Assembly: GCF_009914755.1 (NCBI RefSeq)
Contig: NC_060938.1
Source: the human T2T-CHM13v2.0 reference genome, Homo sapiens
Reading direction: 5' to 3' (one strand)
DNA length: 64,000 bases
Part shown: positions 6,361-7,751 of the stretch, piece after piece
How positions within the stretch are numbered: the stretch's first letter is position 1
How the letters are laid out: each line of letters opens with the position of its first letter
The notes under the pieces: generated by a model
Seen by the model: only the letters and a program-made list of their open reading frames with translations
Database searches by the model: none
Told to the model about the DNA's origin: nothing
Program-made: the position numbers and the translations under genes

Positions 6361-7059
6361 AAAGAGACAGAGATAGAGAATGAATGAGAGAGAATGAGAA
6401 TAAGAATGTGTATATATTTATGTCATGGGAGGCTTTCCAACTGCTTTTTATACAGACTTTTGGCCAGTCCTCCTTTTTTCCAGTCCTGCTTATACCCCTG
6501 GTATTTGTGCCTTCAAATCATGAGGCTTTCTAGGGTATATCAAATCAGCCTACTTTTGGGTGTTCCTACCTTCAGGCTTAGATTTAAGTTCTCTCTAGTT
6601 GGTTGAGTCTTTTTATCACACTTCCATTTCTTTCCATTTTCTACTTCTACAATTATTTTTTGTCTCATCTCCTATTTTCTTTTTTCCTTGTGGGTTTATG
6701 CCTTTGAAAAAAAAATCTGTTTTCTGCCATTTTAATAGATTTGAGTAGAAAGTGGTGGTAAACCCTGTGTTAAATTTGCCATGTTATGATCAAAAGTGGC
6801 CTTTTCCACCTTGGAAAATATTTCACCTAGATCAGTCTTACTCTTTACAACTGTTTTCATCTAACTCCCTTGTAATAATCCAAATTCTTGAAACAAACTG
6901 TATTCACTGATGCCATGTTCTAATGCACTCCTTCTCTAATGTTTTAATACTGTATACTGTGTACTTAAGTCTCTTTACTAACTCATGAGAGATGACCTAA
7001 TCACCAAATGTGAATTTTTTCTTGGATTCTCATTTGTTTTTACCTGTATCATCTGATTC

Positions 7060-7064
<5 letters not shown>

Positions 7065-7111
<47 letters not shown>
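7065..7111. repeat. (TA)n microsatellite
   Basis: Direct inspection; about 23 perfect units. Confidence 0.95.
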
Positions 7112-7114
<3 letters not shown>

Positions 7115-7208
7115 AAAGGATTAGTTTTTCATGTGTTCGGAAATACGCTAATGAAGCCTTAGTTTTGCGGAGAAATCCAATAATTACTGTTTGGTAGAAC
7201 AGAGTTTT

Positions 7209-7303
7209 TTTGTTTTTTTTTTTTTGTTTTTTTTTTTTGTGAGCAACATGGCTGTTTATTTCACCTGGGTGCGCAGGCGGGCTGAGTCCGAAAAGAGTCA
7301 GCC
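7209..7303 (-). mobile_element. Polyadenylated HERV-H LTR7 R-region retrocopy with TSD
   Basis: Minus strand: gGCTGACTCTTTTCGGACTCAGCCCGCCTGCGCACCCAGGTGAAATAAACAGCCATGTTGCTCAC then poly(A). TSD agaacagagtttt at 7196-7208 and 7304-7316. Confidence 0.85.
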
Positions 7304-7486
7304 AGAACAGAGTTTTAAAGACTAAATAAATTTAGACTTTTTCATATATATGAGCCATTTCTTTTGTGAATTGCCTGCTCAGTCTTCTTTTTTCTTTGCC
7401 TATTTTTTCTTATTGACATCTAAGAGCTCTTTGCTTGCTAAGGTTATTAACCTTTTGCTACAAATATTATGAGAATTCCTTTCTTG

Positions 7487-7751
7487 GTGGGGTGCAGTGG
7501 GTAACACCTGTAATCTCAGTGATTTGGAAGGTCCAGGTGGGAGGATCACTTGAGGCCAGGAGTTCAAGATCAGTCTGGGCGACATAGTAAGACCTTGACT
7601 CTACAAAAAATAAAAATAAAAAAATTAGCAGAGTATGTGACATGTGCTTGTAGTCTAGTTGCTTGGGAGGGTGAGGTGAGAGAATATCTTGAGCCCAGTA
7701 GTTTGAGATTGTGGTCCAGCTTGGATGACAGAATGAGACCCTCCCTGCCTC

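What the first reader, a model, noticed from the sequence alone, without database searches (positions are those of the whole stretch)
7196..7316. SINE-like mini-element: L1-retroposed copy of a ~65-nt capped, polyadenylated HERV-H LTR7 'R-only' RNA
Seen: a 13-bp direct repeat (agaacagagtttt, 7196-7208 and 7304-7316) whose right copy ends at TTTT/AA. It encloses ~30 nt of poly(T) and a 65-nt segment. On the minus strand that segment reads G-GCTGACTCTTTTCGGACTCAGCCCGCCTGCGCACCCAGGTGAAATAAACAGCCATGTTGCTCAC-An. The poly(A) starts ~16 nt after AATAAA, and the 5' end can fold (GCTGA-C-TC/TTTTCG/GA-C-TCAGC). Established: this matches my recollection of the LTR7 (HERV-H) R region; TTTT/AA, a TSD and poly(A) are the hallmarks of L1 target-primed reverse transcription, whereas retroviral integration gives short TSDs and TG...CA ends; an untemplated 5' G is associated with reverse transcription through an m7G cap. 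Inference: no U3 or U5 is present, and the base at 7303 belongs neither to the TSD nor to the LTR consensus as I recall it. The template may therefore have been a complete tiny RNA, initiated in an LTR7 and cleaved at the same LTR's poly(A) site. That would be a fossil of short LTR7 RNAs in germline or pluripotent cells and of a non-autonomous family mobilised in trans by L1, which RepeatMasker would show only as an 'LTR7 fragment'. I cannot confirm that this is undescribed.
Basis: partly seen in the sequence, partly recalled or inferred. Interest (0 to 1): 0.85.

Follow-up and report, generated by a model that had tools for sequence, protein, structure and literature searches.

The report
L1-made copy of HERV-H R region
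A 95-base insert in a MIA2 intron is a LINE-1-made DNA copy of only the short "R" stretch of a HERV-H retroviral LTR plus its poly(A) tail; it is a rare, inert by-product of a known process rather than a new mobile family.

Summary
A perfect 13-bp direct repeat (7196-7208 and 7304-7316) encloses 30 nt of poly(T) and a 65-nt segment, and the empty site reads TTTT/AA.

On the minus strand the segment is the R region of HERV-H LTR7 (95-97% identity to other copies). It ends where 40 other poly(A)-tailed HERV-H copies end. It starts at G+GCTGAC, as do 31 other retrocopies that lack U3. That G is untemplated: none of 35 scorable U3-bearing copies has G there.

Random 5' truncation is very unlikely. 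A second, independent R-only copy on contig 11 has the same ends.

- Only 2 of 41 poly(A)-tailed ends are R-only, and both lack the promoter, so this is not a SINE-like amplifying family.
- A complete R-only RNA is my preferred template (about 0.45) but is not shown. Loss of the interior of a full-length retrocopy by R-R recombination (about 0.28), or a template switch during copying, would give the same DNA.

The kind is already known: LTR-derived, L1-mobilised TINEs in tarsier (PMC5059674). Ape orthologues could not be checked.

The parts
7196..7208 (.). Target-site duplication, left copy (AGAACAGAGTTTT). It ends in the TTTT that primed reverse transcription.
   Evidence: D2, 13/13
7209..7238 (-). 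Poly(A) tail of the retrocopy: 30 nt, poly(T) on the + strand, with two interruptions.
7239..7302 (-). HERV-H LTR7 R region, from the inferred transcription start (GCTGAC...) to the LTR poly(A) site (...GTTGCTCAC). It includes AATAAA 16 nt before the tail and a 5' hairpin. It carries a 2-nt GC insertion relative to the other copies.
7303..7303 (-). [quoted passage not shown] It belongs neither to the target nor to the usual LTR7 base (C or T).
   Evidence: PMC3287187 passages
7304..7316 (.). Target-site duplication, right copy. It is followed by AAAG, so the empty site reads TTTT/AA.

Best explanation
The feature is a LINE-1-mediated (target-primed reverse transcription) insertion. Its whole content is the R region of a HERV-H LTR7 transcript: one untemplated cap-derived G, 64 nt from the LTR7 transcription start to the LTR poly(A) site, and a 30-nt poly(A) tail. 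It lies between 13-bp target-site duplications at a TTTT/AA nick, antisense in a MIA2 intron.

The most likely template was a complete, capped and polyadenylated 'R-only' RNA. Such an RNA would start at the promoter of one LTR7 (solo, 5' or 3') and be cleaved at the poly(A) site of the same LTR only about 65 nt downstream. L1 ORF2p would then have copied this tailed RNA to its capped 5' end.

Shown: the L1 hallmarks, the identity with R, both ends matching the ends of HERV-H RNA, the untemplated G, and recurrence at a second locus.

Inferred: that the RNA itself was only R, rather than the DNA having been shortened during or after copying.

The copy has no promoter and is inert. I put about 0.95 on the L1-made R-only copy as a structure and about 0.45 on the R-only RNA as its template. 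The confidence given is for the template.
For: 1. L1 hallmarks: a 13/13 TSD, a 30-nt tail and a TTTT/AA site.

2. The 3' end is the HERV-H poly(A) site. All 77 matches to the 19-nt junction pattern (up to 1 mismatch; reversed-pattern control 26) were read, and 41 are LTR7 R followed by poly(A) at this same site.

3. The 5' end is the HERV-H RNA 5' end.
- 32 copies, this one included, have unrelated flank followed by G+GCTGAC. They are 27 of the 100 listed matches to the 15-mer (classified), 3 of the 7 matches, L009 and L218.
- One copy (L217) has its TSD abutting GCTGAC with no extra base.
- TATAAAA starts 30 nt upstream of that G in U3-bearing copies.

4. Fourteen 5' starts pair with poly(A)-tailed 3' ends 0.8-9.6 kb downstream on the same strand. 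Ten of the 14 pairs share an exact repeat of 10 nt or more, and in 5 pairs a lone G sits between the repeat and GCTGAC.

5. The G is untemplated. In 39 U3-bearing 3' ends the base at that place is C in 19, T in 16, unscorable in 4 and G in 0. The cap-G reading is in print for L1 and SVA (PMC3287187, passages).

6. It is not random truncation.
- A second R-only copy (contig 11, L094/L115), from a different LTR7 variant, has the same 5' and 3' ends.
- Truncated copies end at scattered places: 38, 299 and 1348 nt upstream of R, and inside the 5' U5, plus two weaker candidates at 643 and 1432 nt upstream.
- By my own arithmetic, that is about 4 truncations per 24 elements per 1500 nt. This predicts about 0.005 copies ending at any one base among 41 elements, against 2 observed.

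7. Precedent for the template. Tarsier TINEs are described as L1-mobilised transcripts of an LTR that has its own Pol II promoter and internal poly(A) signals (PMC5059674, passages).
Against: - No RNA evidence was available. A poly(A) site only about 65 nt from the cap is expected to be used poorly (recalled from work on promoter-proximal poly(A) sites in retroviruses; no call).
- Only 2 of 41 tailed ends are R-only, so no abundant template is implied.
- A full-length L1-type retrocopy carries R at both ends. Recombination between them would leave exactly TSD-G-R-poly(A)-TSD.
- A switch of the growing cDNA from the 3' R to the 5' R would give the same product.
- Sequence alone cannot separate these three routes.
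- The census is partial. It rests on exact or 1-mismatch words, 13 matches were not listed, the 16 matches could not be read, and R-only copies without the extra G or with decayed tails were not sought.
- No LTR7 copy with the window's 2-nt insertion was among the 40 scored matches, so no source element is identified.
Confidence: 0.45

Rival explanations
1. Solo-R by recombination. L1 first inserted a full-length HERV-H RNA copy (G-R-U5-internal-U3-R-poly(A)) at this site. Later, recombination or slippage between the two 65-nt R repeats removed everything between them. This is the way solo LTRs arise from proviruses.
For: - Full-length L1-type copies with R at both ends are common here. Seventeen of the 41 tailed ends are resolved as full-length: 14 pairs, one pair by coordinates only and two within single loci.
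- The product would keep the original TSD, the cap G, the tail and a precise R, which is exactly what is seen.
- It needs no unusual RNA.
Against: - 65 nt is short for homologous recombination in mammals. My recalled estimate is a rate tens of times below that of 450-bp LTRs, which predicts well under one event among the few dozen full-length copies seen. Two R-only copies were found.
- No intermediate or hybrid R can be recognised.
Confidence: 0.28
2. Template switch during L1 reverse transcription of a full-length HERV-H RNA. After copying the 3' R, the nascent cDNA re-paired with the identical 5' R of the same or another HERV-H RNA and ran off at the cap, skipping the interior.
For: - HERV-H RNA has R at both ends, and L1 did copy such RNAs often.
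- Template switching by the L1 enzyme is known from chimeric retrocopies (recalled, no call).
- The contig 11 R-only copy lies with a complete Alu inside one TSD, which could be a two-template event.
Against: - L1 ORF2p has no RNase H, so release of a 65-nt cDNA from its template for re-pairing is not expected (recalled).
- Known L1 switches occur mostly at template 5' ends rather than internally by homology (recalled).
- The Alu on contig 11 can equally be a later insertion into the tail.
Confidence: 0.12
3. Ordinary 5' truncation. L1 copied the 3' end of a long HERV-H RNA and stopped by chance at the U3/R border, and the G came from microhomology or a source LTR that has G there.
For: - Truncated L1-type HERV-H copies exist. 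L113 begins 38 nt upstream of R. L222 begins 299 nt upstream, L219 1348 nt upstream and L220 in the 5' U5.
- Thirty-nine ordinary LTR7 copies do carry G at that place.
Against: - Two independent copies stop at the same base, and that base is also the start of 32 other retrocopies. The expected number at any one base is about 0.005 among 41 elements (my arithmetic).
- None of 35 scorable U3-bearing 3' ends has G there.
Confidence: 0.02

Closest known systems
TINEs (Tarsius interspersed elements; Schmitz et al. 2016, PMC5059674; passages read)
   Same: They are short retrosequences derived from an LTR with its own Pol II promoter and internal poly(A) signal, carried into the genome by LINE-1, with an A tail. 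They are promoterless 'retropseudogenes' of an LTR transcript.
   Different: TINEs number about 30,000 copies from LTR77_TS and MER83B-like LTRs in tarsier. Here only 2 copies were found, from HERV-H LTR7 in human, and the unit is only the 65-nt R. Whether the human template was really a short RNA is not shown.
HERV-W processed pseudogenes (Pavlicek et al. 2002, not held, recalled; Grandi et al. 2016, PMC5016936, passages read)
   Same: An L1-made copy of retroviral RNA that starts at R of the 5' LTR and ends at R of the 3' LTR, with a poly(A) tail and L1-type TSD.
   Different: It belongs to a different HERV group. All of U5, the interior and U3 is missing, so a single R stands for both ends.
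Solo LTR
   Same: A lone LTR-derived piece left in the genome. Under the recombination rival it would be the R-level analogue of a solo LTR.
   Different: A solo LTR is a complete U3-R-U5 with short retroviral TSDs and no tail. This piece has neither U3 nor U5, and has a 13-bp TSD and a poly(A) tail.
SINEs and SVA
   Same: They are non-autonomous, mobilised by L1 through a 3' A tail, and show untemplated 5' G's on full-length copies (SVA: PMC3287187).
   Different: SINE and SVA copies can themselves be transcribed and so found lineages. The R-only copy leaves the TATA box and U3 behind, and the two copies stem from different LTR7 variants.

Membership tests
L1-mediated retrocopy (processed pseudogene type) | Target-site duplication of roughly 7-20 bp flanking the insert | tested here: met
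   13/13 direct repeat at 7196-7208 and 7304-7316
L1-mediated retrocopy (processed pseudogene type) | Poly(A) tail at the 3' end, at the RNA's own poly(A) site | tested here: met
   30-nt tail starting 16 nt after AATAAA. The same site is used in 40 other tailed HERV-H copies.
L1-mediated retrocopy (processed pseudogene type) | Insertion at an L1 endonuclease-type site (TTTT/AA) | tested here: met
   The empty site is reconstructed as ...GAGTTTT/AAAG, with the poly(T) continuing from TTTT on the + strand.
L1-mediated retrocopy (processed pseudogene type) | Empty site in species that diverged before the insertion | not testable with these tools
   No primate genome other than the window's own is held.
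HERV-H LTR7 R region | Sequence identity with the stretch between promoter and U5 in LTR7 copies | tested here: met
   94-97% identity over 59-65 nt to the 39 other scored matches. TATAAAA lies upstream and U5 downstream in the U3-bearing copies among the 30 loci read.
HERV-H LTR7 R region | 5' border equals the transcription start | tested here: inconclusive
   The border is inferred from 32 retrocopies that start at G+GCTGAC and one that starts at GCTGAC, and from the 30-nt distance to TATAAAA. No CAGE or primer-extension data were seen. Sjottem et al. 1996 is not held.
TINE-like LTR-derived L1-mobilised retrosequence family | Template is a transcript begun and polyadenylated within one LTR | tested here: inconclusive
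   Both ends fit, but R-R recombination or a template switch gives the same DNA.
TINE-like LTR-derived L1-mobilised retrosequence family | Many copies forming a repeat family | tested here: not met
   2 R-only copies among 41 tailed R ends, and none among the other 30 R-start copies with a 5' G. The census is partial.
SINE | Copies carry their own promoter and can found new copies | tested here: not met
   The TATA box and U3 lie upstream of the retained segment and are absent from the copy. The two copies differ in LTR7 variant. Pol III boxes were not looked for.
Solo LTR from retroviral integration | Complete U3-R-U5 with short TSD and no tail | tested here: not met
   No U3, no U5, a 13-bp TSD and a 30-nt tail.

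The most novel reading that the evidence does not exclude
LTR7 promoters in the germline or early embryo produce a discrete capped RNA of about 65 nt that is cleaved and polyadenylated at the same LTR's own poly(A) site. L1 has copied this RNA more than once. The two R-only inserts would then be the human counterpart of tarsier TINEs, and a fossil record of failure to bypass the promoter-proximal poly(A) site in a gammaretrovirus-like LTR.
Probability: 0.4. Interest if true: 0.55.

Novelty: new member of a known kind. Interest (0 to 1): 0.42.

Why it matters
The copy itself is inert, sitting antisense in a MIA2 intron. Its value is as a marker.

- It fixes, to the base, the start and the poly(A) site of HERV-H RNA as L1 met it in the germline.
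- If the template was truly R-only, it shows that the LTR7 poly(A) site can act only about 65 nt from the cap. That bears on how HERV-H transcripts, which are abundant in human pluripotent cells, escape early termination.
- Repeat annotation would call such inserts LTR7 fragments, so they may be missed or mistaken for decayed solo LTRs.
- The wider by-product may matter more. L1-made HERV-H copies appear common, whereas a review abstract calls HERV-W the sole HERV group mobilised by L1 (PMC5537654).

Tried and rejected
- Rfam scan of 6900-7700 at E up to 1. Nothing falls on the element. There are only sub-threshold hits on the (TA)n tract (mir-1277) and on the Alu downstream.
Flanks were fetched by coordinates instead.
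Six stretches of 6.5 kb were served. As a result, 16 of the 41 tailed ends remain unresolved.
- The 16 matches to the third R-start variant could not be read for the same reason. Only one coordinate pairing, with L068, could be made.
- Literature. Ten searches were run. None gave a description of L1-type HERV-H copies or of R-only copies.
- Pavlicek et al. 2002 and Sjottem et al. 1996 are not held, and supplements were not opened. Absence from print is therefore not established.
- No age estimate is offered. The perfect TSD and intact CpGs only say the insert is not very old.
- The hairpin at the 5' end of R was not tested for covariation.

Full report
**1. The observation**

- The + strand of 7196-7316 reads AGAACAGAGTTTT, then 30 nt of T with two G's, then 65 nt, then AGAACAGAGTTTT again, followed by AAAG.
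- The repeat finder gives the 13-mer pair as a perfect match. It is the only convincing direct repeat in 7000-7500.
- On the minus strand the 65 nt read G, then GCTGAC...AATAAA, then 16 nt ending GTTGCTCAC, then the poly(A).
- The + strand carries TTTT continued by poly(T) and the antisense insert, and the empty site would read TTTT/AA. This is the geometry of target-primed reverse transcription by LINE-1.
- The 5' G is not target sequence, because the base after the other repeat copy is A.
- The RNA folds into a 5' hairpin that includes this G (-20.8 kcal/mol, z = -2.27).
- No Rfam family matches the element.

**2. What the 65 nt are**

- A search of the window's own genome gave 1432 first-look candidates. 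The 40 that were scored are all the same stretch of HERV-H LTR7, at 94-100% identity.
- In the loci I read, ordinary copies have TATAAAA starting 30 nt upstream of the G of GCTGAC. A GC-rich box follows the TATA, and U5 follows directly after GTTGCTCAC.
- The segment is therefore exactly the stretch between promoter and U5, which is R.
- The window copy differs from the others only by a 2-nt GC insertion. No scored copy shares it, so no source element is identified.

**3. The 3' end is the HERV-H poly(A) site, and L1 used HERV-H RNA often**

- The 19-nt junction (R end plus A10) with up to one mismatch occurs 77 times, against 26 for the reversed control.
- I read all 77. Forty-one are LTR7 R followed by a poly(A) tail at this same site.
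- Thirty-eight of the 41 have at least 74 nt of LTR7 U3 directly upstream of R. One (L113) begins 38 nt upstream of R. Two have no U3 at all: the window copy and L094 on contig 11.

**4. The 5' end is the HERV-H RNA 5' end, and the G is untemplated**

Searches for the start of R preceded by G found the following.
- Short variant: 7 exact matches to the 24-mer. Four are ordinary LTRs and 3 have unrelated flank.
- Long variant: 113 matches to the 15-mer (control 3), of which 100 were listed. I read all 100: 93 newly fetched and 7 already held.
  - 37 are unrelated sequence.
  - 35 are ordinary LTR7 copies with G at that place.
  - 1 is an inverted R junction.
  - 27 have unrelated flank, then G+GCTGAC, then R and U5.

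Counts of R-start copies:
- Adding L009 and L218 gives 32 copies, the window's included, that start at G+GCTGAC without U3.
- One further copy (L217) has its 14-nt TSD abutting GCTGAC with no extra base.

Pairing of 5' starts with tailed 3' ends:
- Fourteen of these 5' starts pair with tailed 3' ends 0.8-9.6 kb downstream.
- Ten of the 14 pairs share an exact repeat of 10 nt or more. The other four share 6-8 nt that extend with mismatches.
- In five pairs a lone G lies between the repeat and GCTGAC.

Evidence that the G is untemplated:
- In a sample not chosen for that base, the 39 U3-bearing tailed ends, the base is C in 19, T in 16, unscorable in 4 and G in 0.
- The G is therefore added at the RNA 5' end. 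This is the behaviour ascribed to reverse transcription of the cap in L1 and SVA insertions (PMC3287187, passages).
- Caveat: the searches required the G, so the share of full-length copies without it is unknown.

**5. Not chance truncation**

- Truncated copies do exist and end at scattered places: 38 nt upstream of R (L113), 299 nt upstream (L222), 1348 nt upstream (L219), and inside the 5' U5 (L220). Two weaker candidates lie 643 and 1432 nt upstream.
- Among the 24 other elements seen for at least 1.5 kb upstream, that makes about 4 truncations per 1500 nt. This predicts about 0.005 copies ending at any given base among 41 elements (my arithmetic).
- Two copies end at the very base where full-length copies start.

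**6. The second R-only copy**

- On contig 11 (L094/L115), an 11-nt repeat (GGATGAAAAGG) flanks the following, in order: GCTGAC...R, a tail of 18 A's running into a short A-rich stretch with two G's, a complete Alu, and a run of 22 A's.
- Its R is a different LTR7 variant, with ATTAAA in place of AATAAA. The two copies are therefore independent events.
- The two G's before GCTGAC are also the end of the repeat, so an extra G cannot be scored there.
- The Alu may be a later insertion into the tail, or part of a two-template event.

**7. Mechanism**

The structure is an L1-made copy of R alone. Three routes lead to it.
- (a) A complete R-only RNA, started at an LTR7 promoter and cleaved at the same LTR's poly(A) site. 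I prefer this route. It needs one ordinary L1 event, and LTR-derived L1-mobilised short transcripts are documented in tarsier (PMC5059674). L1 also clearly copied HERV-H RNAs of several sizes, including two copies of about 0.8 kb.
- (b) Deletion by recombination between the two R's of a full-length retrocopy. This is a real rival, because such copies are common here. However, 65 nt of homology is short, and by my recalled estimates it under-predicts two events.
- (c) A switch of the cDNA from the 3' R to the 5' R.

Sequence cannot tell these three apart. Ape orthologues and RNA data can.

**8. Comparison with known kinds, and novelty**

- It works like a processed pseudogene of a retroviral RNA (the HERV-W type; PMC5016936). 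If route (a) holds, it works like a TINE.
- It is not a SINE-like family. Only two copies were found, neither has a promoter, and they come from different source variants.
- Ten literature searches found no description of R-only copies or of L1-type HERV-H copies. Key older papers are not held.
- I file it as a new member of a known kind, of moderate interest.

Noticed in passing
Own genome, loci L031-L048, L053, L068-L114, L116-L122, L124-L222: L1-type retrocopies of HERV-H RNA look common. There are 41 R+poly(A) ends at one junction word and 34 copies that start at R without U3, and 17 of the 41 ends are resolved as full-length with TSDs. A review abstract calls HERV-W the sole HERV group mobilised by L1 (PMC5537654). 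I found no paper describing this for HERV-H, but Pavlicek et al. 2002 is not held.
   Followed up: partly
L202 with L099 (contig 12, about 113,998,711-113,999,530) and L211 with L105 (contig 15, about 53,520,987-53,521,801): Two independent L1-type HERV-H retrocopies are each only about 0.8 kb from R start to tail, with TSDs of 15 and 10 nt. The equal size suggests a discrete short (spliced or deleted) HERV-H RNA. The interior was not read.
   Followed up: no
L094/L115, contig 11 about 5,690,700-5,691,120: The second R-only copy and a complete Alu lie inside one 11-nt TSD. This is either an Alu inserted into the R-only tail or a two-template L1 event.
   Followed up: partly
L149, contig 3 about 90,149,543: The reverse complement of the 3' part of R abuts the start of a sense R at its hairpin, forming an inverted R-R junction. 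It looks like a snap-back or inversion event.
   Followed up: no
L062/L123, contig 2 about 37,392,690: This retrocopy starts at G+GCTGAC inside the A-rich part of an Alu. Its R is joined directly to internal HERV-H-like sequence, with U5 and the primer-binding region missing.
   Followed up: partly
L040, L041, L042 (contig 9); L178, L179 (contig 7); L089, L090 (contig 9): Near-identical copies, flanks included, at distant places. These are segmental duplications, so a few counts above are not independent events.
   Followed up: no
window 7053-7124: A (TA)n microsatellite gives a sub-threshold Rfam hit to mir-1277 (30.4 bits against a gathering score of 81). This is a low-complexity artefact.
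   Followed up: no
window 7490-7700: An Alu element about 175 nt downstream of the insert, seen as weak Metazoa_SRP hits.
   Followed up: no
Own genome, 37 of the 93 loci L124-L216: An unrelated interspersed repeat shares the 15-mer used. Its flanks read ...caaaggaca before the word and ...AGGGGCTAATGCAGCTGG after it in most of these loci. The family was not identified.
   Followed up: no
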